A stretch of DNA of 64,000 bases from Candidatus Wolfebacteria bacterium RIFOXYD12_FULL_48_21 (GCA_001793945.1 MGIW01000006.1:70179-134178), one strand, 5' to 3'. Numbered from the stretch's first letter, positions 4,058 to 40,363 are shown. Made by a program: numbers and translations. Notes: a model not told the origin generated them from the sequence alone.

Positions 4058-4058
4058 C

Positions 4059-4760
4059 ATGACACTTGCAGAACTCAAAAAGAAGCTCAAAAATATCAAG
4101 AGACTTGGCTTCGTTAAAACTCACCGAAAGGGCGATACGGGGATAGGCAAAACCCTTGAAGATTTACTCGGAATAAAAGAAAACAACATTCCGCTCCCTG
4201 ATATTGGCGAGATTGCAGAACTAAAGGCGTATCGTCGAAGCGCAGGATCCATGCTTACTCTTTTTACTCTTGAACCTCAACCAAAAGGTGGCGATCGAGA
4301 TAGAACGCTTCTTGATAATTTTGGATATTCAAAAAGAGATAATGGTCGCTTAAAAGAACTACACAGCACTCTTTCCTGTAAAAGATATAACAACCAAGGT
4401 TTGAAACTCAAAGTTGAAAAAGACAAGGTCCGCGTTGTTGGTAAAGGGAAAAGACTCAATATCTATTGGGACATGGAGGATTTGAAGAAAAAGTTTGAAG
4501 CTAAGCTTCCAGCCCTCGTCTATGCTTTAGCAGATAATAAAGAATTAAAAGGCATCGAGTATTTTTATTTTAATCAAGTATATTTCTTGGAAGGTTTTGA
4601 TTTTGAGCATTTCAAAAATATGGTCAAAAAAGATGCGATTGTTGTCGATCTCAGGATGTTCTATCGACCAAATGGATCTGTTCGTAACCACGGTACTGGA
4701 TTTCGGGTGAAAATAAACCAGTTATATAATTGCTTTGATACGAAAGTTGAATTGCTTTAG
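4059..4760 (+). CDS. Type II restriction endonuclease, MvaI/BcnI-like family
   Basis: The HRKGDTGIGKTLEDLLGIKENNIPLPDIGE...LKAYR...LTLF segment resembles the MvaI_BcnI family from memory. Convergent and tail-overlapping with a DNA methyltransferase gene. Confidence 0.6.
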   Translation: MTLAELKKKLKNIKRLGFVKTHRKGDTGIGKTLEDLLGIKENNIPLPDIGEIAELKAYRRSAGSMLTLFTLEPQPKGGDRDRTLLDNFGYSKRDNGRLKELHSTLSCKRYNNQGLKLKVEKDKVRVVGKGKRLNIYWDMEDLKKKFEAKLPALVYALADNKELKGIEYFYFNQVYFLEGFDFEHFKNMVKKDAIVVDLRMFYRPNGSVRNHGTGFRVKINQLYNCFDTKVELL

Positions 4761-26497: not shown

Positions 26498-27583
26498 ATG
26501 TTCGGAATAAAATTGTTTGGCACATCTTCATATCTTGGCGTCGATATCGGAACTACATCCATCAAAATTGCCGAGATCGGCAAGGGTGGGCATGGTCCCG
26601 AATTGCAGAACTACGGTATTTTGGAGAGCTATGGCCATTTGGAACGGGTCAATAACGCCATTCAGACGAGCGCGCTCAAGATCATGGAGGCGGACACCAT
26701 CCAGCTGTTAAAGACATTGATCAAGCATTCCAATTTTAAATCGCGCGACGCGATTGCTTCCCTACCGTCGTTCGCCGCGTTCATCACATTGTTTGAAATG
26801 CCGCAAATGAACGACGCAGATATCGCAAAGACGATGCAATTTCAGATCGGACAATATATTCCGCTTCCTCTTACCGAAGTTTCCATTGATTGGCTCAAGG
26901 TGGGCGAGCGGCAGGATGACCAAGGGTTCGTCAAGGAGCAAATATTACTCGTGTCCATACCAAATGAAACGATTGAAAAGTATCAGCGTATTTTTGCCGC
27001 CGCAGGCTTGCGGTTGCGTGCCATTGAAATAGAAAGCCTTGCGCTGTTGCGTTCAGTCTCCGATGCAAACATGCCGCCGACGATGGTCGTCGACATCGGT
27101 TCGCGATCGACGAACATCGCGGTCGTGGACAAGGGAAATCTCCGCTACAATTTTCAAACTGATATGTCAGGCGCGGGCATTACACAAGCCCTTGCTGGCG
27201 GGTTGGGAATCAAGATCCGCCGTGCGGAAAAATTGAAACGCGAGCGCGGCATCCTTGGCGGTTCCGAATCTGAACTATCCACATTGATGATGCCGTTCGT
27301 AGATGCTATACTGAATGAGGTAAAGCGCGTAAAAACAAAATACGAACAAAGCTTCGGTACCGTGGTCACGCAAGTGATCCTTGCCGGAGGCGGTTCAAAG
27401 ATGCCGGGTCTTGCTCCCTATGCGCAGGAGCAACTCGGACTTCCTATTGTGATCGCCGATCCGTTTCAAAAGATCCATTATCCTGCGGCGCTTGAACCCA
27501 TCGTGCGTGACCTCGGTCCTTCGTTTGCCATTTCCATCGGTCTCGGCATCAAGGAATTTGTCGAGGCACATCCCGCGGTCTAA
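26498..27583 (+). CDS. pilM: Type IV pilus assembly protein PilM (actin-like ATPase)
   Basis: [15 protein letters not shown] and the overall PilM architecture. Confidence 0.85.
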
Positions 27584-27585
27584 GG

Positions 27586-27780
27586 GGTGTGAGTATGGAG
27601 GCACGAGGTGTGAGATATGAGGTATGAGGTATGAGGTATGAGATATGAGGTATGAGATATGAGAATAAGATATATCTCTCGCCTCCCATCTCCCATCTCC
27701 CATCTCCCATCTCCCATCTCCCATCTCCCATCTCCCATCTCCCATCTCCCATCTCCCATCTCCCATCTCCCATCTCCCAT
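27586..27780. repeat. Heptanucleotide tandem array of about 28 units: (gtatgag-type) x14 then (ctcccat) x14
   Basis: Read directly. 7-bp periodicity is continuous from the pilM stop to the pilN ATG at 27779. Confidence 0.9.
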
Positions 27781-28327
27781 GTCGTATACCCAATCAGTTC
27801 TGCAAACAGAATTATCAAAACAGCGTGAAGCTGCAGCTGGCTGGCCATGGCGGCTGATGACATTTTCTTTTGTCGTCTTCCTCGCAGTCGCAGCTGTATA
27901 TATCGGCATGCGATTTGGCTTCGAGAAAGTTTATTTGAAGCGCGCATTGTCTCAAGAAGAGGCTGAGTTTACTTCGACCTTCAAATCGGTAAGCACGGAA
28001 GAGCAAAAGTCCGTTTTTAATTTTTATTCGCAGTTAAGCAATATTGATACCTTGTTGAAAAAACAAGGGAAAGCGACTCCCCATCTTTCATTCATTGAGC
28101 AAAATACCCTTAAGACGGTCACATATTCCGGCATGGATCTTCGATTTGCCGATCGTTCTGTCGTTATCGTTCTGAATGGCAAGACCGCGGCTTATGCGTC
28201 GGTCGTTCAGCAGCTTGAACTGTACAAACGAGTTTCGACCGTTACTGAAGTTAAATTATTGGGCGCCCGTTTTATTAGTCCGGCCGAGGGTGTTGATTTT
28301 TCCATTCAAATAACCGCAGCGCGTTGA
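27779..28327 (+). CDS. pilN: PilN-like pilus assembly protein (possible N-terminal extension to 27659 through the repeat)
   Basis: Short cytoplasmic N-terminus, one TM helix, periplasmic domain. Position between pilM and pilO. Confidence 0.6.
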
Positions 28328-28337
28328 TCCGTATCTT

Positions 28338-28922
28338 ATGAAATACCTGTCAAAACGATTCGCCAGTATTCTTCTCTCGTTTACATTTTTCGCGTTTGCG
28401 CTTGTTCTGTATGCAAACTTTATCGGGCCTGCCTATGACACCATTAAGGCAGAACAGGGCAAGCTTATTGCGGCGCGGCAAAAGAACGCTGAGTATACGA
28501 GCATTTTTACCCGCCTAAAGCAGGCATCTTCCGAATTTCAGCAGTCATCTGAAGTGCAAAACCGCGTATCCATGGCGTTGCCGCTTGCCGCAAATGTTCC
28601 CGATTCCATGAACCAGCTCTCTGTAATCGCTACGGCGAATGGATTGACCATTACTTCCATCGATATCGTAAATGCGCCAGTCGTTCCGTCCAGCGTGGGA
28701 AAGGCGGGGGAGTCTTCGTTGATCAAAGGCGTTGGTGTGCTAAAAAACTCCATTCGATTAACCGGGACATATGACCAACTGAAGTCCTTTTTGCAAGGCA
28801 TCGAAACCGGCGTACGCATCGCGAGTATTTCTTCCGTAAAAATAGACAAAATCGCAAATCCGATCACGCCCGGCACCATGGGCATAACGGTCGAAGTCGA
28901 AACATATTATCAGGTCAATTAA
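28338..28922 (+). CDS. pilO: PilO-like pilus assembly protein
   Basis: N-terminal TM plus coiled coil. Gene order pilM-N-O. Confidence 0.6.
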   Translation: MKYLSKRFASILLSFTFFAFALVLYANFIGPAYDTIKAEQGKLIAARQKNAEYTSIFTRLKQASSEFQQSSEVQNRVSMALPLAANVPDSMNQLSVIATANGLTITSIDIVNAPVVPSSVGKAGESSLIKGVGVLKNSIRLTGTYDQLKSFLQGIETGVRIASISSVKIDKIANPITPGTMGITVEVETYYQVN

Positions 28923-28930
28923 TATTTATC

Positions 28931-29224
28931 ATGGCAATCGTACTTGAAAAGGAACAAAAAAGTTTTGATTGGAACTTCATACTCGGTATTATGGCCGTTG
29001 TTGGAATCGTCGGTGCGGCTGTCGTGTATTTGTTTTTTGTCAGTCCTGAGACCGTGCAGCAGTTGACGACTCCGGAGCAAAAGACGCTAAGCGAATTTTC
29101 ACAGGTAAGATTTCGACCGGAAGAGATATTAAATAGTGCTGCGTTTCAAAGTCTTCGCACTTTGGCGCCGATGACGGTGCCAAGTGGGGCTGAGGTTGGG
29201 AAATTAAACCCCTTCCTTCAATAA
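28931..29224 (+). CDS. Small membrane protein (pilus-associated?)
   Basis: One TM helix. Located in the pilus operon. Confidence 0.4.
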   Translation: MAIVLEKEQKSFDWNFILGIMAVVGIVGAAVVYLFFVSPETVQQLTTPEQKTLSEFSQVRFRPEEILNSAAFQSLRTLAPMTVPSGAEVGKLNPFLQ

Positions 29225-29373
29225 TCCGTTTTGCTGGCGAACTACCGCGTTGCCTTCCTCGTTTGCTCCCGCGAAGGAGTTTACTCCATCTTGGTTGCAA
29301 GCCTTGTCGGCGCCTTGTATTTCACTCAGCCAAACAAATTATTGTCGTATATGATTGAAATTGAATAAGCCAT

Positions 29374-31113
29374 ATGGAAAACAAAACACTGGTTGATGCA
29401 CTAATTCAAGATGGGCTGATCGGAGAGGTGGAAGGGCGCAAGGTGTTGCAGGAAGCCGCGCTTGCGCGACGACCCGTAGATGAAATGATCTACGAACAGC
29501 GCCTTGTGGACGAAGAAAAGCTTGCCATAGCAAAGGGCAAGCTTTTGAATGTGCCTTATCGAAAGATTGATCCACAGGATATCGATGATGAAACGCTAAA
29601 GTTGTTCCCCGAAGAAAGCGTGCGGAATTACAAGATCATCCCCCTCAGCATCAAAGACGATCTGTTGGTTGCGGGTATGATCAATCCGGATGATGCGCAT
29701 GCGCAGGAGGCCTTGAAGTTCATTGCCAAACAGCGCCGATTGAATGTGGGCGCATATATCGTCACACCGTCATTGTGGGAAACCGTGTTGCGTCGCTACT
29801 CGCCCTATCGCAGCTTGATCGATGAGGCCATAAAAGCGAGCGCTTCCATCGCGGCAAAGGGTTCCGGCCCGGTGCAGACCGTTCGGCTTGAAGAAACGAA
29901 AGGCGCCAATGCCGATGAGACGCCGATTATTCGCATTGTTTCGACCACGCTCAAGGAAGCGGTTTGGGAAAAGGCGTCCGATATCCATATTGAACCACAG
30001 CGCAACCGCAGTCGCATCCGCTTTCGTATCGACGGCGAATTGCGGGAAGTCTCCGCATTTCCTTTGGTTCTGCATTCATTGATCGTATCCCGCGTCAAGA
30101 TCCTTGCGAACCTTAAGATCGACGAGTCGCGTATTCCACAGGATGGTCGTTTTCGAACCGTTTTGTTTGGCAGGGATATCGATTATCGCGTTGCTACATT
30201 TCCGACTCCGGTCGGCGAGAAGGTTGTTATTCGCGTACTTGATCCGTCCACCGGTTTGCGCGGGTTGGAAGATCTTGGGTTGCGCGGTAAGAATCTTGCT
30301 ACCGTAAAAAGTGGTATTGAAAAACCATACGGTGTCATTTTGATTACCGGCCCTACTGGCTCCGGAAAAAGCACAACGCTATATGCGTTGATGCAGTTGT
30401 TGAACAAGGACGATGTGAACATTGTCAGTCTTGAAGACCCGGTTGAATATTATATGGATGGACTGAATCAATCCCAGGTAAAGCCGGAAATCGGATACGA
30501 TTTTGCATCCGGACTGCGCCAGATATTGCGCCAAGACCCCGATGTGATCATGGTCGGTGAGGTCCGCGACGAAGAAACTGCTGCACTTACCATCCAAGCT
30601 GCACTTACCGGGCATATTGTACTTTCCACGCTGCATACCAACAATTCCGTTGGTGTCATCCCGCGTCTTATCGATATGAAGGTGCAACCGTTTTTGCTTC
30701 CTGCCGCACTTAATCTTATGCTTGCACAACGGCTTGTTACGCGGTTGTGCCAACAGTGCAAAGTGGGTGAACTTGCCCCTCCTCAAGTTGCCGAGATTAT
30801 TGCTCGCGAACTTGGCAGATTATCTGCCGATGCACGGGGGGTATATCCGGTTTCCGGCCCGTATACGGTGTATCATTCGCCGGGCTGCGAAGCATGTAAA
30901 GGAAAAGGTGTCTCGGGGCGACTCGCTGTGTTTGAAGTATTGGCCATGACTCCCGAGATGGAGCGGGTCATAAACGCCGGGGCGACCGAGTCCGCTATTC
31001 TTGAAGAAGCCCGCCGGCAAAATATAGTTACCATGCATCAAGATGGCATTCTTAAGGCACTTGAGGGGATGACATCCATAGAAGAAGTGCTTCGTGAAAC
31101 CGTGGAAATGTGA
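29374..31113 (+). CDS. pilB: Type IV pilus assembly ATPase PilB/GspE
   Basis: Walker A GPTGSGKSTTL. Tetracysteine CEACKGKG. Confidence 0.9.
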   Translation: MENKTLVDALIQDGLIGEVEGRKVLQEAALARRPVDEMIYEQRLVDEEKLAIAKGKLLNVPYRKIDPQDIDDETLKLFPEESVRNYKIIPLSIKDDLLVAGMINPDDAHAQEALKFIAKQRRLNVGAYIVTPSLWETVLRRYSPYRSLIDEAIKASASIAAKGSGPVQTVRLEETKGANADETPIIRIVSTTLKEAVWEKASDIHIEPQRNRSRIRFRIDGELREVSAFPLVLHSLIVSRVKILANLKIDESRIPQDGRFRTVLFGRDIDYRVATFPTPVGEKVVIRVLDPSTGLRGLEDLGLRGKNLATVKSGIEKPYGVILITGPTGSGKSTTLYALMQLLNKDDVNIVSLEDPVEYYMDGLNQSQVKPEIGYDFASGLRQILRQDPDVIMVGEVRDEETAALTIQAALTGHIVLSTLHTNNSVGVIPRLIDMKVQPFLLPAALNLMLAQRLVTRLCQQCKVGELAPPQVAEIIARELGRLSADARGVYPVSGPYTVYHSPGCEACKGKGVSGRLAVFEVLAMTPEMERVINAGATESAILEEARRQNIVTMHQDGILKALEGMTSIEEVLRETVEM

Positions 31114-31224
31114 TAAAATACATGCAACAAGCGACATGTAACATGTAACAAGGGAATGCGGTTATAGTACACCATTTCACTTATATTCCATGTCTCAGTA
31201 ACTAGTAAACATTCATCCCTTTCT

Positions 31225-32298
31225 ATGGACTACAAACAACAGCTAAATGACCTTTTGCTTTCAACGGCAAAACAAAACGCATCCGACCTGCACATCGGTG
31301 TCGGCAAATATCCCATGTTGCGCATCGATGGGTTGTTGATCCCGTTGCAAAAAGAGGGCATCGTTACACCCGAGGTCGCAACTGGTCTTGTTACCGAGTT
31401 GCTGACTCCCCAACAACGCGCGGTTGTTGAGAAAAACCGCGAAGTCGATTTTTCTTATACCTATGAAGATAAGGCGCGTTTTCGTATTAATGTATTCTAT
31501 CAGCGCGGATATATGGCTGCAGCATTGCGTTTGATCCCGGCGGAGGCTCGCACTATAGAAGATCTTGGTTTGCCGCCGATCTTGCACGATTTTACCAAAC
31601 TGTCGCAAGGATTCTTTTTGATTGTGGGCCCTGCCGGCCATGGCAAGTCGACTACGCTTGCTGCACTTGTCGACGAGATCAACCATACTCGCACGGAACA
31701 TATTATCACCATTGAAGATCCTGTCGAATATATGTTTGTGCAGGATAAGTCCATCGTTTCGCAACGCGAAGTGCTGAGCGATACGCCCGATTTTCACATG
31801 GCATTGAAGTCGCTTTTGCGTCAGGATCCGGACATTGTCATGATTGGAGAAATGCGCGACAAGGAATCCATCGCTACCGCCATGACGGCCGCGGAAACCG
31901 GACACCTTGTCTTTTCCACACTGCATACCAATTCGGCCGCACAGACTATTGATCGTATTATTGATAGCTTTCCGCCTGATCAGCAAAACCAGGTCGCTTC
32001 GCAGCTTGCCGCCACATTGGTCGGCATCGTTTCTCAGCGGTTGATCCCGCATGTCGATGGCGGCCGCGTTCCCGCGTGCGAAATCATGATCGTCAATTCC
32101 GCCATCCGCAACTTGATCCGTGAGCGCAAGGCGTACCAAATCGACTTGGTCATTGAAACATCCATGCAAGAGGGTATGGTCACGCTGAACCGATCGCTTG
32201 CTACGCTGGTTCGCAGTCGGCAGATCGCACTCGAAGAGGCGGAGTTGTACTCGTTGAATGCGAGTGAGCTGCGCATATTGATCGAAAGGGTGTCGTAG
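31225..32298 (+). CDS. pilT: Twitching motility ATPase PilT
   Basis: GPAGHGKSTTLAA and the PilT-type IITIEDPVEY. Confidence 0.9.
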   Translation: MDYKQQLNDLLLSTAKQNASDLHIGVGKYPMLRIDGLLIPLQKEGIVTPEVATGLVTELLTPQQRAVVEKNREVDFSYTYEDKARFRINVFYQRGYMAAALRLIPAEARTIEDLGLPPILHDFTKLSQGFFLIVGPAGHGKSTTLAALVDEINHTRTEHIITIEDPVEYMFVQDKSIVSQREVLSDTPDFHMALKSLLRQDPDIVMIGEMRDKESIATAMTAAETGHLVFSTLHTNSAAQTIDRIIDSFPPDQQNQVASQLAATLVGIVSQRLIPHVDGGRVPACEIMIVNSAIRNLIRERKAYQIDLVIETSMQEGMVTLNRSLATLVRSRQIALEEAELYSLNASELRILIERVS

Positions 32299-32302
32299 GG
32301 TT

Positions 32303-32378
32303 GTGTCATTCTGAACTTGTTTCAGAATCCCCCCTATTTGTACATGAGATTCCGAAACAAGTTCGGAATGACAATAAG
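32303..32378. repeat. Palindromic MITE-like element
   Basis: gtcattctgaacttgtttcagaatc ... gattccgaaacaagttcggaatgac. Confidence 0.7.
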
Positions 32379-32390
32379 ATATGTTTATCC

Positions 32391-33605
32391 ATGAAATTCA
32401 AATACCAAGCACGCAATAAGGATGGGGAACTGCAAGTCGGGTTCGTGGAATCATATTCGCAGGCGGGCGCTGCGGATGTTTTGGTTTCCCATAGTCTGTA
32501 TGTCCTTAGTCTTGAAAGTACGGATAAGGAAAATATTTTTGACAAATTTCTTGCCGCGTTCAAGCATATTTCACTAACCGATCTCATGATCTTTACGCGT
32601 CAATTTGCGACGCTCATGGAGGCAAAGGTTTCCCTTGGTGATTCCATGAAGAACCTGCAAAAGCAGACGCGTAGCCCGATGATGAAAGAAGTGATCCATG
32701 AGATCACATCCGACATCGACAGCGGTCTTGCCCTGTCACAGGCGTTTGAACGACAAAAGGATGTATTTTCGGAATTTTATGTCAGCATGATCCGGTCTGC
32801 CGAGATAACGGGGCGTTTGGAAGAAGCCGTTATTTATTTGGCCGCCTATATCGAAAAGCAAAAACTGTGGCGCTCTCGCATCATTAACGCGCTTATTTAT
32901 CCAATCATTTTAGTTGTCATGTTCTTGGGCATCGTGTTGCTTATGGTAACCATGGTCTTGCCGAACATTCGGCCGATCTTGCTTGAATCGGGCACCGCAT
33001 TGCCGTGGTATACGCAGGCTGTTTTGGTTGGGGGCGATTTCATCATCAACTGGTGGTGGGTCGTGATTCTTGCCGTCGTACCTTTGGTCATGTTCATTTT
33101 GGAATATGCCCGCAGTGAAGAGGGTAAGGTGGTTATCGACGAAGTGGTATTGCGCATGCCCGTGTTCGGAAACCTTTTTGCGAAAATGTACATTGCCCGG
33201 TTTGCGGAATCGTTGAGCATCTTGATCCAAGGAGGTATTCCTATCGCGCAAGCATTGGAGATCACTTCTCGATCGATTGGCAGTAATGTGTTCCATGAGA
33301 TATTGCACGAGGTCAGCGATCGGGTTCGCGGAGGCGAGCTGCTTTCCACTGCATTGGAGCAGTACGAATTTTACTTTCCTTCGTTGGTCAGTCAGATGAT
33401 CGCCATCGGCGAAACTACGGGGCGGCTCGATGAACTGCTCGGCCGCGTTGGTATATTCTACACGCGGGAGGTCGACGACATCATGGGTCGGCTTGGCGAG
33501 CTTATCCAGCCGCTCATCATCGCCATTATCGGTGTCTTTGTCGGATTCCTATTTGCATCCATACTCGTTCCGATATATAATTTAGTAAAGTCATTCAGTG
33601 CATAA
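32391..33605 (+). CDS. pilC: Type IV pilus inner-membrane platform protein PilC (GspF family)
   Basis: Two T2SSF repeats and three TM helices. Confidence 0.9.
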   Translation: MKFKYQARNKDGELQVGFVESYSQAGAADVLVSHSLYVLSLESTDKENIFDKFLAAFKHISLTDLMIFTRQFATLMEAKVSLGDSMKNLQKQTRSPMMKEVIHEITSDIDSGLALSQAFERQKDVFSEFYVSMIRSAEITGRLEEAVIYLAAYIEKQKLWRSRIINALIYPIILVVMFLGIVLLMVTMVLPNIRPILLESGTALPWYTQAVLVGGDFIINWWWVVILAVVPLVMFILEYARSEEGKVVIDEVVLRMPVFGNLFAKMYIARFAESLSILIQGGIPIAQALEITSRSIGSNVFHEILHEVSDRVRGGELLSTALEQYEFYFPSLVSQMIAIGETTGRLDELLGRVGIFYTREVDDIMGRLGELIQPLIIAIIGVFVGFLFASILVPIYNLVKSFSA

Positions 33606-33660
33606 TTAACCAACAACTAATAACCTGCGGCCGATAACAAATATCGGAGGATACTATTTT

Positions 33661-34155
33661 ATGAAAATACTACAATACAAAAAAGGCAGCGCCTTGATCC
33701 GTCAGGCGACGGAGAAAGGTTTTACTTTGGTCGAAATGCTTATCGTTATTGCTATCGTTGCCATTCTTGCATCGGTTGCGTTGGTAAGCGTGCGTGGCGT
33801 TCGTGAGGCGGCGGCCGACACCAAGCGCATTTCCGATTTGAGCAAAGTGCAAACATTGCTTGAGATCTATTATAATAAGCAAGGTACATATCCGAATGTA
33901 AGTACTTGGGACGCATTGGAGACCGAGCTGAAAGCAAAGAACATCACTGCTACCGATATTCCGCAGGACCCGCTTGGCGACACCCGCTCCTATGCATATG
34001 GCATTCAGCCCTCCACATTTCAACGCTATATTTTACGGGCTCAATTGTTGGATTCAGACCATAGAAATCTTACCGATGCCAACGAGATTGATACCACTGA
34101 ATACGGCGTTGATTGCAACGATACCAGCGGCTATTACTGTATAAGCTCGTTCTAA
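33661..34155 (+). CDS. Type IV pilin (prepilin)
   Basis: EKG|FTLVEMLIVIAIVAILASVALV. Confidence 0.8.
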   Translation: MKILQYKKGSALIRQATEKGFTLVEMLIVIAIVAILASVALVSVRGVREAAADTKRISDLSKVQTLLEIYYNKQGTYPNVSTWDALETELKAKNITATDIPQDPLGDTRSYAYGIQPSTFQRYILRAQLLDSDHRNLTDANEIDTTEYGVDCNDTSGYYCISSF

Positions 34156-34182
34156 CGGGTTCCCGTATGCCCATGCAAGCGC

Positions 34183-35109
34183 ATGGGCATATTTATATCT
34201 TTTGCCATTATGACATTTTTTTCCTATATACTTTTGGCGACGCTCGGGCTTATTATCGGAAGCTTTCTTAATGTTGCAACGCTGCGCTATGATCCTGATG
34301 GGGGATTTTTGAATATACGTTTATTTGGCGGTCGTTCTCATTGTCCGCGGTGTCGCGCGCAACTGGCGTGGTATGAGCTCATCCCCGTATTGAGTTATTT
34401 GTTTCTTTGGGGGCAATGCCGCCATTGCAAGCAGCACATATCGTTGCAGTATCCTATCGTAGAGCTTCTAACCGCCATTGTATTCGTTGCGATTCCTATG
34501 CGCATTGAATCGATGTCCTATATGCTATTTGCGGGCAGTGTCGGAGCGCTTTCCGTTGCGCATCTTTTGGTATCTGCGCTTTGGGTCGCAGTCTTTGTGT
34601 TGTTCATTGCATTGGCGGTCATAGATCTTCGCCACATGATCATTCCCGATTTTATTGCGATCGCCTTGGGCACTATCGGGGTCGTGCTTGCCGGTGTCAT
34701 GCAATGGTTTGGCGGGTTTTCCCCGTTGCGGGGTTCTTTTATGGGGCACTATGCCATGATTTTTGGGTTTCGCGAAAGCATTTGGGTTAACCATTTTTTT
34801 GCGGCGTTTGTTGGGCTTATATTTTTTGGGCTTATCATCGGCTTGAGTAGGGGGCGTGCGATGGGATGGGGAGACCTAAAGCTTGCGGGTGCATTGGGTC
34901 TTATCTTCGGATGGCCGGATATTGTGCTTGTGCTCATGCTCTCGTTCATTATCGGGTCCGTTGTGTCGGTTGGGCTTATGGTGCGCGGGCGCAAGACCAT
35001 GGGCGATGCGGTTCCATTTGGTCCGTTTTTGGTTATCGGCGCGGCAACCGTGTTCTTTTTCGGTTTCCGAATCATGTCGCTATATTTTGGTTCGTTCGGT
35101 GTTGTGTGA
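34183..35109 (+). CDS. pilD: Prepilin peptidase (A24 family)
   Basis: CPRCRA...CRHC zinc motif plus a multi-TM peptidase domain. Confidence 0.85.
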   Translation: MGIFISFAIMTFFSYILLATLGLIIGSFLNVATLRYDPDGGFLNIRLFGGRSHCPRCRAQLAWYELIPVLSYLFLWGQCRHCKQHISLQYPIVELLTAIVFVAIPMRIESMSYMLFAGSVGALSVAHLLVSALWVAVFVLFIALAVIDLRHMIIPDFIAIALGTIGVVLAGVMQWFGGFSPLRGSFMGHYAMIFGFRESIWVNHFFAAFVGLIFFGLIIGLSRGRAMGWGDLKLAGALGLIFGWPDIVLVLMLSFIIGSVVSVGLMVRGRKTMGDAVPFGPFLVIGAATVFFFGFRIMSLYFGSFGVV

Positions 35110-35120
35110 GTAGGGGGGCG

Positions 35121-35420
35121 CCAAGCAGAATCGCTGCAGGGGAACCCGCTCACGGATTTTGTGGGGCAAAATCCTGCGCTTCCGTTTGGGTTCCCCTGCA
35201 GCGATTTCGCTTGGCTTGAAGGGAGGGGAAGAGAAGGGAAGGGGCAGACAGAATCGCCATGCGGGAACCCGCTCACGTGTTACACACTGCTGTCCGCCGG
35301 CTGGCGGATTTAGGTTCCCATATTGTCATTCCTGTGAAAACAGGAATCTGAATTTCCGTCATCGCAAGGCGGAATGTTTCTCATATAGGCTTGCCATGCC
35401 TGCAGATCGCATATATACTT
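35121..35420. repeat. Cluster of palindromic MITE/REP-like elements, including a 28-bp-arm hairpin at 35121-35218
   Basis: gccaagcagaatcgctgcaggggaaccc ... gggttcccctgcagcgatttcgcttggc, followed by copies with the ccggctggcggat box and a gtcattcctgtgaaaacaggaat hairpin. Confidence 0.75.
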
Positions 35421-35539
35421 GAAATAGAAGGGTAGTATTGGGTTTAGTGTTAGCCACACAGTCGAGGTGGCTTGACAAAAATATTAAACCATGCTATTAA
35501 TTAAATCAGCAACTAACCAACTAATAAAGGAGAAAAACC

Positions 35540-36145
35540 ATGGAAGGATTCAACAGAAAGGCATTCGACGAAATGGTGGGCAAGGCACAAGAAGAGGCAT
35601 TAAAAGACAATGCCAAACTTGATAGCGCAAATGCGCTGATCAAAGAGATCAAGGGAGAAAAGGAAATTGCCGAGTCGAAAGAGCAATTCGAAACTTGGCA
35701 AACAATCGAATCTGGAGGGAAGTCAAAGGACGAGCTCATAAAAGAGCTTGAAGAAAAAGGAAGACTAATTGGCGCCGACGCCAACCATCTTCTTAAAAGT
35801 GAAGATTTCAAGACCTCCGAATCAAGGGAACATATTGATCTCGTAAGGCCGACCGTTAAAGATCTCGGGTTTGATAATGGTGCCACTACTGAAGAAATAT
35901 ACGCAAGAGCCGATGAATTGGGGTTGGATCTCTGTGAAGCTGAAGATGCTCCCAACTTAAGGGTCCAATATGATGGGACAGAAGGCATGGCGATCGCCAT
36001 GAAGCAGATTACCGGCTCTGGTGGCTTCCCGAGTGTGTTCTACCTGAGCAGCGATGACGACGACCTGTGGCTCGGCACGAACGGTGCGCGTCCCGGCATC
36101 AGGTGGAATGCTGACAATCGCTTTGTCTTCCGTCGGCGCAAGTAA
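35540..36145 (+). CDS. DGR target protein with a C-terminal variable region
   Basis: AAAGGAG Shine-Dalgarno. The C-terminal 45 aa is encoded by the VR. The tail reads DDDLWLGTNGARPGIRWNADNRFVFRRRK, which is CLec-fold-like. Confidence 0.8.
   Translation: MEGFNRKAFDEMVGKAQEEALKDNAKLDSANALIKEIKGEKEIAESKEQFETWQTIESGGKSKDELIKELEEKGRLIGADANHLLKSEDFKTSESREHIDLVRPTVKDLGFDNGATTEEIYARADELGLDLCEAEDAPNLRVQYDGTEGMAIAMKQITGSGGFPSVFYLSSDDDDLWLGTNGARPGIRWNADNRFVFRRRK
36008..36142 (+). repeat. DGR variable repeat (VR)
   Basis: 135-bp copy of the TR with 14 substitutions, all at TR adenines. Confidence 0.85.
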
Positions 36146-36208
36146 CTCTTGTGGACTTGTGCGCCTGTTATCTATTTGGGCACTTGGTCCCTTTGTTCCC
36201 TTGCATTT

Positions 36209-36233
36209 AAATCCCGCGCTTTGCGCGGGATTT
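36209..36233 (+). terminator. Perfect 11-bp-stem hairpin downstream of the VR and target stop
   Basis: aaatcccgcgc ttt gcgcgggattt. Confidence 0.45.
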
Positions 36234-36498
36234 GTATTATGGTACGATGATTGCGGTAGTAGGCTAATGATCCAATGCGGGCGATCAAGGTTTCCCGCGG
36301 CCGAATCCGGTATCCATGCGTCGAGAGTGCCTTCGTCCTCCGGCTGGCGGATTGAGACAGGGTGGCGCATGCAGAAACTCCATCAAAAATGAAGATACTT
36401 GGTATAAGATATTGGAGGAGTCTTGCTCCCAAATACTATACAGCCTTGAGTTTGCCAGCAAGCGATCGAGGGGCGGTGGAACGGATGATATCTTATAC

Positions 36499-36633
36499 AT
36501 TACCGACTCTGATGGCAACCCGAATGTGTTCAACCTGAACAGCAATGACGACGACCTGTGGCTCGACACGAACAATGCGCGTCCCGACAACAGGTGGAAT
36601 GCTGACAATCGCTTTGTCTTCCGTCGGCGCAAA
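36499..36633 (+). repeat. DGR template repeat (TR)
   Basis: Adenine-containing master copy, with AAC/AAT codons in the target frame. Embedded in a non-functional-looking ORF, 36316-36834. Confidence 0.85.
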
Positions 36634-36638
36634 CCTCT

Positions 36639-36953
36639 TTATTTCTCCTCCGGACTTGCGCCGGAGGAGTTTTTCTTTTCAATCTGGTGTTGCCACCCGC
36701 CGAGCATCTTGCCGATCTCATCTACGCATTTTGAAAGCGCAATGTATTTCTTACTATCAAGAACATTTATTTCCCACGCAAAGCGGAAAAAAAATTTTAG
36801 TTCGTCTATCTTGGCCCCGGCTTTTTGTAGGTGAGGCAATTTGAGTGCCTCTTTTTTCCAGCTGGCGGTAAACAGAAGTCCTGCCGTTTCGATAATAAGG
36901 CCGTCGATTTTTGTCCCCAATGTATAGCGTGAAGTTTTCGGGAATAGCTTCAC
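36639..36953 (-). CDS. avd: Avd-like accessory variability determinant (four-helix-bundle / 23S IVS protein family)
   Basis: FPKTSRYTLGTKIDGLIIETAGLLFTA and SKKYIALSKCVDEIGKMLGGW match the Avd/IVS pattern FPK.E.Y.L..QI.RAA.SI..NIAEG ... E.GKML. The ORF may extend upstream to about 37010 with a non-ATG start. Confidence 0.7.
   Translation of the reverse strand: MKLFPKTSRYTLGTKIDGLIIETAGLLFTASWKKEALKLPHLQKAGAKIDELKFFFRFAWEINVLDSKKYIALSKCVDEIGKMLGGWQHQIEKKNSSGASPEEK
36645..36679 (+). terminator. Plus-strand intrinsic terminator immediately 3' of the TR
   Basis: ctcctccgg acttgcg ccggaggag tttttctttt. Confidence 0.6.
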
Positions 36954-37013
36954 ATATTCTTGCCAGAGTTTGTACAGTGTGATAGTTTTGCTAATAATTG
37001 TTAAATTATTAGC

Positions 37014-37033
37014 GGGGGGGGGTAATTTTTTTT
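37014..37033. repeat. Homopolymeric G9 tract followed by a T8 tract in the avd-RT intergenic region
   Basis: agcgggggggggtaattttttttg, read directly. Confidence 0.8.
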
Positions 37034-37042
37034 GTTATTATT

Positions 37043-38071
37043 ATGAATGTCAAATTGAGTCATATATTTGAAGAGATAATTTCCGTCGATAATCTTTTGT
37101 TTGCATGGAAGGAATTCGAAAAGGGCAAGAAAAACAAAATCGATGTTTTAAAATTTTCGGAACGACTGATGGATAACATCTTATCATTGCATTACGATTT
37201 GGCAAGCAGAACATATGCGCATGGCGGGTATAAGGCATTTAAAATAAGCGATCCGAAGCCCCGCGATATCCATAAAGCGAGTGTGCTGGACAGATTGCTC
37301 CATCACGCCATATATAGAGTCGCATACCCCTATTTTGACAGGAAGTTCATCTGCGATTCTTATTCCTGCCGGAACGGGAAAGGAACACACAAAGCCATGA
37401 GTCGCTTTAAGCAATATCACAATGAAGTTTCCAAAAATAACACAAGAACCTGCTGGGTATTGAAATGTGACATTAGAAAGTTTTTTGCCAATATCGACCA
37501 TCAAATACTGAGGGATATTTTAGAAAAACATATAGAGGATGAGGATTTGATGTGGCTATTGGGAGAGGTTGTCGGGAGTTTTAATACCGAAGGGAAGACG
37601 GGCAAAGGGCTTCCGCTCGGGAACCTTACATCTCAGCTCTTAGTGAATATATACATGAATGAATTTGATCAGTATATGAAGCATGTATTGAAAGTAAAAT
37701 GGTATATCCGATATGCTGATGATTTTTGCATGCTATCTGGGAATAAAAAAGAATTGGAACAATTGTTGTCCCAAACAGGTGACATTCTGAAAGGAAAGCT
37801 GGAACTGGAGCTCCATCCCGATAAGGTTTCCATAAAAACATTTTCTTCCGGAGTTGATTTTCTTGGGTGGGTGCATTTCCCGGCTTATAGCGTCTTGCGA
37901 ACTTCCACCAAAAGGAGAATGATGGAAAGAATAAGAAAGCGCTTAAATGATGAAACGGTGGGTTCGTATTTGGGAATGCTGAAGCACGGGAACGGGCATT
38001 TAATACGCGAAGAAATAGTATCAATACAAAATGGCGCAAGCGGTTGGATACCCTCTGCCAATAAGGTATAA
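37043..38071 (+). CDS. DGR reverse transcriptase
   Basis: RT motifs present. PLGNLTSQ is the DGR-specific (I/L)GxxxSQ. YADDF active site. Confidence 0.9.
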   Translation: MNVKLSHIFEEIISVDNLLFAWKEFEKGKKNKIDVLKFSERLMDNILSLHYDLASRTYAHGGYKAFKISDPKPRDIHKASVLDRLLHHAIYRVAYPYFDRKFICDSYSCRNGKGTHKAMSRFKQYHNEVSKNNTRTCWVLKCDIRKFFANIDHQILRDILEKHIEDEDLMWLLGEVVGSFNTEGKTGKGLPLGNLTSQLLVNIYMNEFDQYMKHVLKVKWYIRYADDFCMLSGNKKELEQLLSQTGDILKGKLELELHPDKVSIKTFSSGVDFLGWVHFPAYSVLRTSTKRRMMERIRKRLNDETVGSYLGMLKHGNGHLIREEIVSIQNGASGWIPSANKV

Positions 38072-38078
38072 TGGTCAT

Positions 38079-38657
38079 ATGATGAACGGGAAACGCGTCG
38101 AAAAGCATGCGGCTATGAGAGGATTTACCTTGATCGAAACACTCGTTGTTATGAGCCTTGTTTTGATTTTGATCTCGATTGCGGCCATGTATAACAGAAA
38201 TGCCGGACGGCAGGTTTTGGTGGCTCGCGAACATGCAAAGGTGCTGACGACATTCGTGCGTGCGCGTTCTGCCGGACTTACCATTCCAAAGACCGACCCA
38301 AGTGTGGAACGCATTTGTGCCTATGGCGTGCATGTCGATTCTGCTGCGCGTACCATTATACTATTCAAGGATCTGGGCGAGCCGCTTCCCGGCTCCTGTG
38401 TTTCGGCGAATCATATATATGATGGCGACAGTGAGGCGCTTGAGCGAAGCGTGCTTGATGCCACGGTTAATATGGCCGCTACGAACATACAAGATGTCGT
38501 ATTCATTCCGCCTTCCGGTGAAGTGATTATTACCAACGAAGGGGGAACAGTCGTGCAATCGGCGACCGTAACGGTTGCCGGTGTTGAATCGGGGCTTTCC
38601 CGCGGCGTAAAAATAAATACATTCGGACAAATAACCGAGTTTGAGCCAATCCCATGA
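38079..38657 (+). CDS. Minor pilin / pseudopilin
   Basis: AAMRG|FTLIETLVVMSLVLILI prepilin motif. Confidence 0.7.
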   Translation: MMNGKRVEKHAAMRGFTLIETLVVMSLVLILISIAAMYNRNAGRQVLVAREHAKVLTTFVRARSAGLTIPKTDPSVERICAYGVHVDSAARTIILFKDLGEPLPGSCVSANHIYDGDSEALERSVLDATVNMAATNIQDVVFIPPSGEVIITNEGGTVVQSATVTVAGVESGLSRGVKINTFGQITEFEPIP

Positions 38658-39172
38658 AACAGCGCATATCCATACAATCGGGAGGATTTCTTCTTGTCGA
38701 AGCCATGGTATCTATGAGCGTATTGATGGTCGGCGTGCTTGGTATATTTGCGCTCATGTCCCAGTCGATCAAACTTACTCGAGTGATCAACGATCAATAT
38801 GTTTCCACCTATCTTGCGGCAGAGGGAATCGAAGTGGTAAAGAACATACTTGATTCAAATGCGCTTACCGATCCCGGCGCATGGAATGCCGGAGGGTTTG
38901 ATGCGGCTGCGTGCTACGAACTTGACTATACAACCGATGATATTGGCTCCGCGCTGTCGGCGTCGTGTTCGGGAAGCGGTGCTACGCCCTTGCTGTTCGA
39001 TGGCTCTGTTTATAGTTATGCGGGCGGAACGGCGAGCGGTTATTCGCGAACGGTGCAGATCGCTCCGATCATGGATGGCGCGCAGATCGGTGTGCGCGTG
39101 CGTTCCATTGTGCGTTGGGCCGGCGGAGAACAATCGTTTGCACTGGAGGACACATTTTATGCGTGGCATTGA
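38654..39172 (+). CDS. Minor pilin / pseudopilin
   Basis: QSGG|FLLVEAMVSMSVLMV. Confidence 0.7.
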   Translation: MKQRISIQSGGFLLVEAMVSMSVLMVGVLGIFALMSQSIKLTRVINDQYVSTYLAAEGIEVVKNILDSNALTDPGAWNAGGFDAAACYELDYTTDDIGSALSASCSGSGATPLLFDGSVYSYAGGTASGYSRTVQIAPIMDGAQIGVRVRSIVRWAGGEQSFALEDTFYAWH

Positions 39173-39183
39173 TCATGACTATG

Positions 39184-39846
39184 GCATGTAAACAAAAACA
39201 AAAAATGCAAAGAGGATTCACCTTGATCGAACTGATCGTCGCATTCGGTATTTTTGCCATTCTGATCACTATTGCCTCCGGGAGTTTTGTGCGTTCGTTG
39301 CGCATTCAGCGGGTTTCGTTGCAGCTCATGGCGGTCAACGACAATATGGCAATAACTCTGGAACAGATGATGCGCGAGATGCGGACCGGGTATAACTTTT
39401 GCACCAACACGGAAAATCTTTCTGCTGCCGATCCTTCCGTGCAGGCGCAATGCGCCGCACTGGACAACGGAGAGATTCAATTCGTGACCGCCGGCAATGT
39501 TTTGGTGCGGTATCGCTTGAAAAACGAGGCCATTCAAAAGGGTGTTGGCGTTGCCGCATGGGATCCGGCAAATCCGCCTGAAACGGCTTGCGACGAGGGT
39601 GAGTTTGATGCGACCAGCGGTGTTTGTTATCGCACTATGACCGCGGATACGATCAAGGTCTCTGATGCCAATTTTCGTGCGTTGCACAACGATGTGGAAG
39701 TTTCTCCGTTGTATCCACCGCGCATCGTGCTGAGTTTTGCTGTTACCAGCAGCGATCCTTTGGTCGAGGCGTTTGCGAGTCCCATTACCATTCAAACGAC
39801 AGTGAGTGCGCGGTGTGGGGTTAGCTCGTGCCCCTCCGACTCGTAA
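39184..39846 (+). CDS. Minor pilin (PilW/GspJ-like)
   Basis: MQRG|FTLIELIVAFGIFAILI. Start ambiguous between 39184 and 39208. Confidence 0.65.
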   Translation, partial: ACKQKQKMQRGFTLIELIVAFGIFAILITIASGSFVRSLRIQRVSLQLMAVNDNMAITLEQMMREMRTGYNFCTNTENLSAADPSVQAQCAALDNGEIQFVTAGNVLVRYRLKNEAIQKGVGVAAWDPANPPETACDEGEFDATSGVCYRTMTADTIKVSDANFRALHNDVEVSPLYPPRIVLSFAVTSSDPLVEAFASPITIQTTVSARCGVSSCPSDS

Positions 39847-39961
39847 TAGGATGGTTCACGGTTGACGGCTCATAGTTTACGGGCGGAAGCAGTTGGTGCA
39901 TTTAGTCGACTGTGAACCGTAAACTGTTAATGGTTATCGAAGAATAAACAGTCTAAATACA

Positions 39962-40363
39962 ATGCAATCGTTTATGAAGCGACCTAACATAAAAAAATAT
40001 ACCCAACGGGGGCAGGCTATGATCCTGACGGTGCTCGTGTTGTCGAGCATCGTGCTTTCGTTGTCATCCATCGGCGGGTATTTGATGCTGGTCCGCTTGC
40101 GCATCAGTTCCGATATCGGCAATACCATGCGCGCCATTTACATTGCCGATGCGGGGCTTGAGTGTGAAGCATATAACCATTTCAAAAATAGCGATGCGGC
40201 GGGATTTTGTGCTGATGCCGCCCGAAATGCTTTTCTGTCCGGTGAAGTTGATGATACGGCGCGTTTTTATTATGAAACGGTCTATGTATCTGCTGCACCT
40301 TCGTATATTCGTTCCATTGGAACTGCTCGGAATGTAAACCGGTCGTTCCGGCTTGATTTCTGA
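39962..40363 (+). CDS. PilX-like pilus-associated protein
   Basis: N-terminal hydrophobic helix. Last gene of the minor-pilin cluster. Confidence 0.4.
   Translation: MQSFMKRPNIKKYTQRGQAMILTVLVLSSIVLSLSSIGGYLMLVRLRISSDIGNTMRAIYIADAGLECEAYNHFKNSDAAGFCADAARNAFLSGEVDDTARFYYETVYVSAAPSYIRSIGTARNVNRSFRLDF

What the first reader, a model, noticed from the sequence alone, without database searches (positions are those of the whole stretch)
33661..40363. DGR inserted in the middle of the type IV pilus locus, between pilD and four minor-pilin genes
The gene order is pilM-N-O-B-T-C, major pilin, pilD, then a MITE cluster, the DGR (target, TR, avd, RT), and then four prepilin-type minor pilins plus a PilX-like gene. 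The RT stop at 38071 is only 7 nt from the first minor-pilin start, which suggests co-transcription. The hypervariable target has no signal peptide or prepilin motif. A cytoplasmic or non-classically exported variable protein coupled to a competence/adhesion pilus is an unusual pairing. It may relate to host-cell or phage interaction in an episymbiont lifestyle.
Basis: inference. Interest (0 to 1): 0.55.

Follow-up and report, generated by a model that had tools for sequence, protein, structure and literature searches.

The report
Retroelement cassette inserted in pilus operon
A real, standard diversity-generating retroelement of the kind common in ultra-small (CPR) bacteria sits between two type IV pilus genes in this Wolfebacteria genome, but comparison with relatives shows a lineage-specific insertion with no sign that it works together with the pilus.

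Summary
Window 35540-38071 is a complete DGR, lying between pilD and the minor-pilin genes of a Candidatus Wolfebacteria type IV pilus locus. It has a 201-aa target with VR 36008-36141, TR 36499-36632, Avd on the minus strand, and an RT. All 13 VR/TR mismatches fall on TR adenines.

Small corrections: avd is antisense, there are three prepilin-type genes plus one PilX-like gene, and the "MITEs" are two local palindromic units.

- In four related genomes pilD abuts the first minor pilin, so the site is empty there and the DGR is an insertion.
- The closest relative keeps only the target gene at this site and lacks TR-avd-RT.
- The 7-nt RT/minor-pilin spacing arises because the RT reading frame runs across the insertion junction.
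- A conserved promoter-like site lies just before the pilin start. The target has its own promoter-like site and hairpin.
- Among 80 loci carrying this target family, only 2 lie near pilus genes, about the chance level.
- A target without a signal peptide is already described as typical of CPR DGRs.

The target models as a divergent C-type-lectin-like fold. It is an ordinary member of a known kind, and interest is low.

The parts
26498..34155 (+). Upstream part of the type IV pilus locus: pilM, pilN, pilO, a small ORF, pilB, pilT, pilC and the major pilin (33661-34155)
   Evidence: Pfam hits PilM_2, PilO, T2SSE + MshEN, T2SSE, T2SSF and N_methyl. The same order is found in L004-L008.
34183..35109 (+). 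pilD prepilin peptidase, the left flank of the insertion
   Evidence: PF06750 at 1.6e-29 and PF01478 at 1.7e-12. In L005-L008 the next gene is the first minor pilin.
35108..35345 (.).
   Evidence: RNA fold -114.7 kcal/mol, z -5.7. Also present at the same site in L004. No other copies were found.
35472..35500 (+). Promoter-like site for the target gene: TTGACA, 17-nt spacer, TATTAA
   Evidence: Read from the sequence. The TTGACA box is conserved upstream of the target in L002 and L004. The scan tool did not list it because the -10 hexamer fails the tool's T6 rule.
35540..36145 (+). DGR target (variable protein), 201 aa. It has a long N-terminal helix and an about 150-residue C-type-lectin-like domain whose last 45 codons are the VR.
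36008..36141 (+). Variable region (VR)
   Evidence: 134 nt, 90% identical to the TR, with 13 of 13 mismatches at TR adenines. A strain variant (L001) differs at 18 VR sites, 17 of them at TR adenines.
36209..36233 (+). GC-rich hairpin downstream of the target stop (AAATCCCGCGC-TTT-GCGCGGGATTT). It is a probable terminator of the target gene, or the DGR target-recognition hairpin.
   Evidence: Read from the sequence. Conserved in L004.
36250..38041 (.). TR-avd-RT module: the segment present here but absent from the sister genome L004
   Evidence: In blastn, window 33718-36249 matches L004 9533-12011 and window 38042-40374 matches L004 12065-14496. GC is 0.38-0.42 in the avd-RT part against about 0.50 in the flanks.
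36499..36632 (+). Template region (TR): 35 adenines and 10 AAY codons in the VR reading frame
   Evidence: Identical in the L001 variant.
36645..36669 (+). Strong terminator-like hairpin immediately after the TR: 9 base pairs, 7 of them G-C, followed by a T-run
36639..36953 (-). avd accessory gene on the minus strand. The ORF is 104 aa from a GTG start, and the true start may lie a little further upstream.
   Evidence: PF22296 bAvd at 2.1e-13, 51 bits against a 40-bit cut-off. NCBIfam DivGenRetAVD at 4.7e-18, below its cut-off. phrog_3206 "Avd protein of DGR" at 2.4e-18. Avd lies next to the target in 36 of 80 related loci, antisense to it in most of them.
37014..37022 (.). Poly-G tract of 9 G in the divergent avd/RT intergenic region. 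The L001 variant has 8 G.
37043..38071 (+). DGR reverse transcriptase, 342 aa, with motifs LGNLTSQ and YADD. Its last roughly 10 codons are encoded by the native region upstream of the pilin.
   Evidence: PF00078 at 1.2e-22. phrog_1423 at 1.7e-105. 7973 relatives at E<=1e-60; those carrying a source name are all CPR or unclassified bacteria. Junction analysis.
38045..38072 (+). Promoter-like site TGGATA-16-TATAAT directly upstream of the first minor pilin. Its -10 box overlaps the RT stop codon.
   Evidence: 10 of 12 matches. Conserved in L004, which has no RT there.
38079..39846 (+). Three prepilin-type minor pilin genes: 38079-38657, 38654-39172 and 39175-39846
   Evidence: N_methyl / IV_pilin_GFxxxE hits for the first and third and a PilV-like hit for the second. 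Orthologues directly follow pilD in L005, L007 and L008.
39962..40363 (+). PilX-like gene with a hydrophobic N-terminus and no family hit
   Evidence: Kyte-Doolittle maximum 2.32 at residue 19. No Pfam hit. Same position in L004 and L005.

Best explanation
This is a canonical diversity-generating retroelement of the CPR (Patescibacteria) clade.

**How it most likely works.**
- The TR (36499-36632) is transcribed.
- The RT (37043-38071), helped by Avd (36639-36953, minus strand), copies the TR RNA into cDNA and misincorporates opposite adenines.
- The cDNA replaces the VR (36008-36141).
- This rewrites up to about 20 codons on the ligand-binding face of a small C-type-lectin-like protein that has no signal peptide.
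- The cycle itself is inferred from established DGR biology. The parts and the adenine-specific footprint are shown here.

**How it came to be in the pilus locus.**
- The roughly 2.9-kb cassette (35110-38041) is a lineage-specific insertion into the short pilD / minor-pilin junction of the type IV pilus operon.
- It was present in the common ancestor of this genome and Wolfebacteria RIFOXYB1_FULL_54_12. That genome has since lost TR-avd-RT, or never gained it.
- The cassette carries its own promoter-like and hairpin signals.
- The minor-pilin genes have a promoter-like site at the junction.
- Its position in the pilus locus is most likely incidental rather than functional.
For: **DGR parts**
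- 13 of 13 VR/TR mismatches fall at TR adenines.
- The RT has the LGNLTSQ and YADD motifs and matches RVT_1 and phrog_1423.
- Avd is recognised by three libraries.
- The VR lies at the 3' end of the target ORF.

**Recent activity**
- A strain variant (left part of L001) has an identical TR.
- Its TR-avd-RT segment differs by one substitution and one 1-nt indel in about 1.8 kb (about 99.9% identity).
- Its VR differs at 18 sites, 17 of them at TR adenines.

**Insertion**
- pilD abuts the first minor pilin in L005, L007 and L008, and is followed by it without any DGR in L006.
- The avd-RT part has GC 0.38-0.42 against about 0.50 in the flanks.
- L004 shares the palindromes, the target and the hairpin but lacks window 36250-38041.
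- In L004 the insert is bounded on its right by a 24-nt copy of the pilD 3' end.

**Age of the insertion**
- The non-VR part of the target has dS 1.1 between the window and L004, similar to its neighbours, and dN/dS 0.15.

**No pilus link**
- The layout target(+)-TR-avd-RT recurs in 36-38 of 80 loci with this target family, in most of them with avd antisense as here.
- Pilus genes lie nearby in only 2 of those 80 loci. By my rough estimate, 2-4 would be expected by chance.
- A promoter-like site precedes the minor pilin and is conserved in the RT-less L004.
- A terminator-like hairpin follows the TR.
- Roux et al. 2021 (PMC8144416) report that CPR clade-2 targets typically lack transmembrane or other recognisable domains.
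Against: - No terminator-like site lies between the RT and the first minor pilin, so read-through transcription is possible.
- The target gene has been kept intact and under purifying selection at this exact site in two diverged Wolfebacteria, even where the RT is gone. That is compatible with some local function.
- One unrelated locus (L020) also has a family member directly upstream of pilC and pilins.
- The context survey would miss very divergent pilins, because it relied on tblastn with this window's pilus proteins.
- Promoters and terminators are consensus matches only.
- Exactly the same VR is found in at least 23 contigs from many samples, so current activity may be low.
Confidence: 0.8

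Rival explanations
1. There is functional coupling. The DGR-diversified protein has been recruited to the type IV pilus. It might be a variable adaptor or tip factor, or a non-classical substrate exported by the pilus machinery. It would be co-expressed with the minor pilins to vary host-cell or DNA binding in an episymbiont.
For: - The cassette sits inside the operon, with the RT stop 7 nt from the pilin start and no terminator between them.
- The target is retained under purifying selection at the same site in two species.
- L020 shows another family member directly upstream of pilC and two prepilins.
Against: - The site is empty in four related genomes whose pilus loci are intact.
- Only 2 of 80 family loci are near pilus genes, about the chance level.
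- In 67 of 80 loci the variable domain is preceded, in the same ORF or directly upstream, by an about 520-aa N-terminal region; 58 ORFs of the family exceed 500 aa. None of this is related to pilins.
- The target has no prepilin motif and no hydrophobic segment.
- The target has its own promoter-like site and hairpin, and the pilins have their own promoter-like site.
Confidence: 0.07
2. The element is a decaying or inactive DGR remnant. The cassette landed in the pilus locus, its RT C-terminus was damaged at the junction, and the VR is now frozen. The sister genome, which has lost the RT module, shows the end point of that decay.
For: - The natural RT C-terminus seen in L002 (...SMQRDMVA*) is replaced here by flank-encoded residues.
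- The avd ORF starts at GTG and lacks about 18 N-terminal profile positions.
- An identical VR occurs in at least 23 contigs from many samples.
- L004 lacks TR-avd-RT, and the 3' end of its VR has diverged.
Against: - A strain variant with an identical TR has 18 VR differences, 17 of them at TR adenines, which points to recent mutagenic homing.
- The RT, avd and target ORFs are all intact, and the RT catalytic motifs are present.
- The TR and the 3' 42 nt of the VR are identical, as homing requires.
- A 104-aa avd is also called in L002 and in other assemblies.
Confidence: 0.12
3. The RT belongs to another retroelement class (group II intron, retron, or defence-associated DRT/UG reverse transcriptase), and the repeat pair is coincidental.
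For: The RT gives sub-threshold hits to group II intron maturase, Drt2/Drt3a and UG models.
Against: - All those hits are far below the curated cut-offs, for example 145 bits against 300 and 72 bits against 390.
- The adjacent Avd, the 134-nt TR/VR pair with 13 of 13 adenine-specific mismatches, the VR position at the C-terminus of a lectin-like fold, and the LGxxxSQ motif are diagnostic of DGRs.
Confidence: 0.01

Closest known systems
CPR (Patescibacteria) DGRs: 'DGR clade 2' of Roux et al. 2021 (PMC8144416), first surveyed by Paul et al. 2017 (Nat Microbiol 2:17045, which I could not read)
   Same: - Cellular, chromosome-encoded DGR from groundwater CPR bacteria.
- The RT clusters with thousands of relatives; those carrying a source name are CPR or unclassified bacteria.
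- The target has no signal peptide, transmembrane segment or recognisable domain, and its VR lies in a divergent C-type-lectin-like C-terminus.
- The cassette layout target-TR-avd-RT recurs in 36-38 of 80 related loci, in most of them with avd antisense.
   Different: - The target is a short 201-aa form that lacks the about 520-aa N-terminal region found with the variable domain in 67 of 80 family loci.
- The cassette sits inside a type IV pilus operon.
- The RT 3' end is fused to flanking sequence.
Bordetella phage BPP-1 DGR (Mtd / bAvd / TR / Brt), the prototype
   Same: - Adenine-specific mutagenic retrohoming from the TR into a VR at the 3' end of a C-type-lectin-fold protein gene.
- An Avd accessory protein.
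- An RT with the I/LGxxxSQ and YxDD motifs.
- Identical 3' ends of VR and TR, which look like an IMH.
- A hairpin downstream of the VR.
   Different: - It is cellular, not phage-borne.
- avd is antiparallel and lies after the TR, not before it.
- The target is not a tail fibre and has no export signal.
Treponema denticola TvpA and archaeal AvpA-type DGR variable proteins (C-type-lectin / FGE-like fold)
   Same: The predicted fold class matches, and the variable residues lie in the C-terminal strands.
   Different: - TvpA is a lipoprotein on the cell surface.
- This protein has no lipobox or signal peptide.
- There is no detectable sequence similarity to any PDB chain.
Type IV pilus / competence pilus loci of CPR bacteria (comF-pilMNOBTC-pilin-pilD-minor pilins)
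   Same: A complete and intact locus in the order shared by L004-L008.
   Different: It is interrupted between pilD and the first minor pilin by the 2.9-kb DGR cassette. Elsewhere those two genes abut or overlap.

Membership tests
Diversity-generating retroelement (DGR) | A template/variable repeat pair whose mismatches fall almost only on adenines of the TR | tested here: met
   134-nt pair, 13 of 13 mismatches at TR adenines. The same pattern holds in L001 (10 of 11) and L002 (18 of 19).
Diversity-generating retroelement (DGR) | An RT of the DGR type: RVT_1 domain, I/LGxxxSQ motif and YxDD catalytic motif | tested here: met
   PF00078 at 1.2e-22. phrog_1423 at 1.7e-105. LGNLTSQ and YADD were read in the translation. 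I built no RT phylogeny.
Diversity-generating retroelement (DGR) | An accessory protein (Avd or HRDC) next to the RT | tested here: met
   PF22296 bAvd at 51 bits, above the 40-bit cut-off. phrog_3206 "Avd protein of DGR". NCBIfam DivGenRetAVD at 65 bits, below its 80-bit cut-off.
Diversity-generating retroelement (DGR) | The VR lies at the 3' end of a protein-coding target, in a fold that tolerates variation (C-type lectin or Ig-like) | tested here: met
   - The VR covers codons 157-201 of 201.
- The model has pLDDT 92.5.
- Foldseek is not significant: best E 0.17, to NKG2D.
- The fold assignment is therefore moderate, not strong.
Diversity-generating retroelement (DGR) | Ongoing mutagenic retrohoming (activity) | tested here: inconclusive
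   Two VR alleles share an identical TR and differ at 18 sites, 17 of them at TR adenines. However, one allele is identical in at least 23 contigs. No read-level data or experiment was available.
Diversity-generating retroelement (DGR) | An IMH / initiation-of-homing element and a hairpin at the 3' end of the VR | tested here: inconclusive
   The 3' 42 nt of the VR and TR are identical. The hairpin at 36209-36233 is conserved in L004. Function is not testable here.
Type IV pilus system | Core machinery: PilB/PilT ATPases, PilC platform, PilM/N/O alignment proteins, PilD peptidase, and a major pilin with a prepilin motif | tested here: met
   Pfam hits for all of them except PilN, which is assigned by position.
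Type IV pilus system | The DGR target is a pilus component: it has a prepilin motif or is a conserved member of the locus | tested here: not met
   - No N_methyl hit and no hydrophobic segment.
- Absent from the locus in L005-L008.
- The family is rarely near pilus genes, 2 of 80 loci.
MITE (miniature inverted-repeat transposable element) | A short element with terminal inverted repeats, present in many copies in the genome | tested here: not met
   Inverted arms are present. The only copies found are at this locus: none elsewhere in the 64-kb window or in the about 20-kb loci of L004 and L005. The rest of the genome could not be searched.

The most novel reading that the evidence does not exclude
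In this Wolfebacteria sublineage, a stand-alone hypervariable lectin-like protein without a signal peptide may have been co-opted as a type IV pilus-associated factor. It could be a cytoplasmic specificity adaptor, or a cargo or tip factor exported non-classically through the pilus machinery. That would explain why it has been kept under purifying selection between pilD and the minor pilins in two diverged species, even after loss of the RT module in one of them.
Probability: 0.06. Interest if true: 0.7.

Novelty: new member of a known kind. Interest (0 to 1): 0.22.

Why it matters
As it stands, little. DGRs are already known to be abundant in CPR bacteria, and their targets are already known to lack export signals.

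The useful results are negative or clarifying.
- The pilus context is a lineage-specific insertion with a datable history: an empty site, a target-only state and a full cassette.
- The tight RT/pilin spacing is a junction artefact.
- A contig that seemed to show the same DGR elsewhere is an assembly chimera.

A by-product of more general interest concerns the target itself. It belongs to a very large family without a Pfam model (more than 5000 representatives at 50% identity). These proteins are apparently cytoplasmic DGR targets, and the variable domain is usually preceded by an uncharacterised region of about 520 aa. What such intracellular variable proteins bind remains an open question for CPR biology.

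Tried and rejected
1. **"Same DGR elsewhere" (contig L001).**
   - Contig L001 (JGI Ga0103680_10015084) is 97.7% identical to window 35157-37987, but a glycosyltransferase follows its RT instead of minor pilins.
   - At first I read this as relocation of the cassette and then rejected that reading.
   - The flank is 99.95% identical to a Candidatus Doudnabacteria genome that has its own DGR at that spot.
   - The join lies in a 21-nt stretch shared by the two RT genes.
   - The contig is almost certainly an assembly chimera.
2. **Contig L002.** It is 83% identical at the nucleotide level, but it is too short to show its context.
3. **MITE status.** No additional copies of the palindromic units were found.
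4. **Sequence-level relatives of the target.** No Pfam, NCBIfam, PADLOC or PHROGs hit and no PDB sequence hit. Foldseek against the PDB was not significant. The afdb50 library was unavailable.
5. **A PcfJ-like N-terminal domain in long family members.** Only one of the long members I scanned with Pfam matched PF14284, so this is no more than a weak lead.
6. **An RT elsewhere in the sister genome L004.** No RT named as coming from that genome appears among the top 120 RT relatives, but most of those hits are unnamed.
7. **Paul et al. 2017.** The paper could not be read. No held paper mentions this genome or links DGRs to type IV pili in CPR bacteria.
8. **Other retroelement classes for the RT.** Rejected, because all those hits are far below the family cut-offs.

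Full report
**What is there.**
The window comes from Candidatus Wolfebacteria bacterium RIFOXYD12_FULL_48_21. The target and the RT are 100% identical to its proteins A2524_01085 and A2524_01095.

- comF on the minus strand
- pilM, pilN, pilO and a small ORF
- pilB, pilT and pilC
- the major pilin (33661-34155)
- pilD (34183-35109)
- a non-coding stretch with palindromic repeats (35108-35345)
- the DGR
- three prepilin-type genes (38079-38657, 38654-39172, 39175-39846)
- a PilX-like gene (39962-40363)
- leuS

**The DGR is real.**
- VR 36008-36141 and TR 36499-36632 are 134 nt long and 90% identical.
- All 13 mismatches are at TR adenines, and 12 of the 13 are in codon positions 1 or 2.
- The TR has 35 adenines and ten AAY codons in the VR reading frame.
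- The RT (37043-38071) matches RVT_1 and the phage DGR-RT family phrog_1423 at 1.7e-105. It carries the LGNLTSQ and YADD motifs.
- Avd (36639-36953) is recognised by Pfam bAvd above its cut-off and by phrog_3206.
- Hits to group II intron, retron and DRT models are far below their cut-offs.

- avd lies on the minus strand.
- There are three prepilin-type genes plus one PilX-like gene, not four plus one.
- The "MITE cluster" is one about 100-nt palindromic unit plus a partial second one. I could find no further copies.

**The target.**
- The 201-aa protein has no Pfam, NCBIfam, PADLOC, PHROGs or PDB sequence match.
- It has no hydrophobic segment: Kyte-Doolittle maximum 0.75, against 2.3-3.0 for the pilins.
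- A profile search shows it belongs to a very large family, with 5241 representatives at E<=0.001. The family shares a C-terminal domain of about 150 residues.
- With a 40-sequence alignment, AlphaFold gives a confident model with pLDDT 92.5.
- Foldseek finds nothing significant. I therefore call it a divergent C-type-lectin-like fold, with moderate confidence.
- In 67 of 80 family loci from metagenomes, the variable domain is preceded, in the same ORF or directly upstream, by an uncharacterised N-terminal region of about 520 aa. This window's protein is a short form that lacks it.
- The family as a whole lacks transmembrane-like segments.
- This agrees with Roux et al. 2021, who state that CPR clade-2 targets typically lack transmembrane or other recognisable domains (PMC8144416).

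A genome-collection scan with PilD returned five loci.

*Empty sites.*
- In Wolfebacteria GW2011_GWB1_47_1 (L005, a complete genome) and in three other Paceibacteria-type genomes (L006-L008), the locus has the same order.
- In all four, the first minor pilin is the next gene after pilD, with no DGR between them.
- The two genes overlap in L007 and L008, and lie within about 50 nt in L005.

*The closest relative, Wolfebacteria RIFOXYB1_FULL_54_12 (L004).*
- Its pilus proteins are 84-96% identical to those of the window.
- It has the palindromic units, the target gene (68% identical) and the downstream hairpin at the same site.
- Window 36250-38041, which holds TR, avd and RT, is absent. Homology resumes at 38042, just upstream of the first minor pilin.
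- Its insert is bounded on the right by a 24-nt copy of the pilD 3' end, with 20 of 24 positions matching, including a 14-nt exact run.
- Between the two genomes, the non-VR part of the target has dS about 1.1, like its neighbours, and dN/dS 0.15. The target was therefore in place before the two lineages split, and it is maintained by selection.
- The VR of L004 still shows an excess of changes at TR-adenine positions: 16 of 35 adenine positions differ, against 17 of 99 other positions. Its 3' end has diverged.
- I consider loss of the TR-avd-RT module in L004 the more parsimonious history. Later gain in the window's lineage cannot be excluded.

*Base composition.* The avd-RT part of the cassette has GC 0.38-0.42, against about 0.50 in the flanks. 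This fits a foreign origin.

**The 7-nt spacing.**
- The RT of the nearest independent cassette (L002, 82% identical) ends ...SMQRDMVA*.
- In the window the RT frame continues across the junction at 38042 into sequence that L004 shows to be the native region upstream of the pilin. It stops at 38069-38071.
- The closeness of the RT stop to the pilin ATG is therefore a consequence of where the insertion ends. It is not evidence of designed coupling.
- The same junction holds a promoter-like site, TGGATA-16-TATAAT at 38045-38072 (10 of 12 matches). It is conserved in L004, where no RT precedes it.
- The target has a conserved TTGACA-17-TATTAA site at 35472-35500 and a conserved hairpin after its stop codon at 36209-36233.
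- A strong terminator-like hairpin follows the TR at 36645-36669.
- These are consensus matches only. No terminator separates the RT from the pilins, so read-through remains possible.

**Is the pairing recurrent?**
- A metagenome scan with the family alignment gave 80 loci totalling 702 kb.
- 38 of them have an RT and 36 an Avd next to the target. Most show the same layout as here, target(+)-TR-avd(-)-RT(+). The antisense avd is therefore the norm for this clade.
- Pilus genes are nearby in only two loci. In L020 a family member lies directly upstream of pilC and two prepilins. In L028 a convergent pilB-like gene lies after the RT and a DUF4143 ATPase.
- The typical pilus cluster is about 14 kb in a genome of about 0.9 Mb, and the loci average about 9 kb. 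On those figures, my rough estimate is that two to four such cases would occur by chance.
- There is no enrichment. The caveat is that very divergent pilins would be missed.

**A false lead.**
- Contig L001 is 97.7% identical to window 35157-37987 but continues into a glycosyltransferase gene.
- The glycosyltransferase is 100% identical to a Candidatus Doudnabacteria protein.
- That genome has its own DGR at that place.
- L001 positions 2807-4995 match it at 99.95%.
- The switch between the two sources occurs in a shared 21-mer, TATTTGGGAATGCTGAAGCAC, in the two RT genes. L001 is an assembly chimera, and I do not use its right flank.
- Its left part is still informative. The TR is identical to that of the window. 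TR-avd-RT differs by one SNP and one G in a poly-G tract. The VR differs at 18 positions, 17 of them at TR adenines. This is good indirect evidence of recent mutagenic homing.
- Against high current activity, exactly the same target protein is found in at least 23 contigs from many aquifer samples, all in the same pilus context.

**Conclusion.**
- The feature is a canonical CPR-type DGR with a short-form C-type-lectin-like target that lacks a signal peptide. It was inserted, with flanking palindromic repeats, into the pilD / minor-pilin junction in one Wolfebacteria sublineage.
- The parts and the adenine footprint are shown. The retrohoming cycle and the transcription units are inferred.
- Nothing in the comparative data points to a functional link with the pilus. 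The residual possibility rests on retention of the target at this site in two species, and I put it at about 6%.
- It is a new member of a known kind and of low interest.

Noticed in passing
window 27586-27780 (pilM-pilN junction): There are fourteen perfect tandem copies of the heptanucleotide CTCCCAT (27683-27780). They run straight into the ATG at 27779, which is probably the true pilN start (MSYTQS, conserved in L004). A (TGAGRTA)n array at 27586-27673 precedes them. L004 has 11 copies and L005 has none. A 7-nt unit is a classic slipped-strand tract, so this may be a phase- or level-variable control of pilN.
   Followed up: partly
window 37014-37022: A run of nine G lies in the divergent avd/RT intergenic region, near the promoter-like site for avd (37053-37025, minus strand). 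The strain variant L001 has eight G, so the tract length is polymorphic.
   Followed up: partly
L001 1-5347 (JGI Ga0103680_10015084): This public metagenome contig is a chimera of a Wolfebacteria DGR and a Candidatus Doudnabacteria chromosome. The two parts are joined at a 21-nt stretch shared by their RT genes.
   Followed up: yes
L096 8078-10811 (Cand. Doudnabacteria, GCA_001777515.1 MFEF01000011.1): This Doudnabacteria genome has its own DGR-like cassette (putative target, Avd, RT) beside a glycosyltransferase cluster. Its RT is called as two ORFs of 226 and 108 aa, which suggests a frameshifted or degenerate RT.
   Followed up: no
L016-L095; example L089 8390-10489: In the target family, the variable domain is usually preceded by an uncharacterised N-terminal region of about 520 aa, giving proteins of about 650-700 aa where the two are fused. 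This holds in 67 of 80 loci. One member weakly matches PF14284 (PcfJ-like). There are no transmembrane segments. This appears to be a very large family (more than 5000 clusters at 50% identity) of apparently intracellular DGR targets with no Pfam model.
   Followed up: partly
L004 12040-12066 compared with L004 10880-10906: In the sister genome, a 24-nt copy of the pilD 3' end (TTTGGTTCGTTCGGCGTCGTGCGA) bounds the inserted segment on its right. It looks like a target-site or att-type duplication. The mechanism that mobilised the cassette is unknown, and there is no integrase or transposase nearby.
   Followed up: partly
window 40478-43303 (leuS): The precomputed Pfam list for this leucyl-tRNA synthetase includes an ASCH domain (PF04266) between the catalytic and editing-domain hits. 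This would be an unusual insertion for LeuRS.
   Followed up: no
window 35692-35899 compared with L001: About 45 of the 61 substitutions between the window and the strain variant L001 cluster in a 200-nt tract in the middle of the target gene. The rest of the cassette is nearly identical. This suggests a recombination patch inside the target gene.
   Followed up: no
window about 1017-1199: There is a further prepilin-type N-terminus, 41-45% identical to the pilin N-termini of this locus by tblastn. It lies far from the main pilus cluster.
   Followed up: no
L020 185-3701: In an unrelated metagenome contig, a member of the target family lies 106 nt upstream of a pilC (T2SSF) gene, which is followed by two prepilin-type genes. 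This is the only other tight juxtaposition with pilus genes among the 80 loci.
   Followed up: partly
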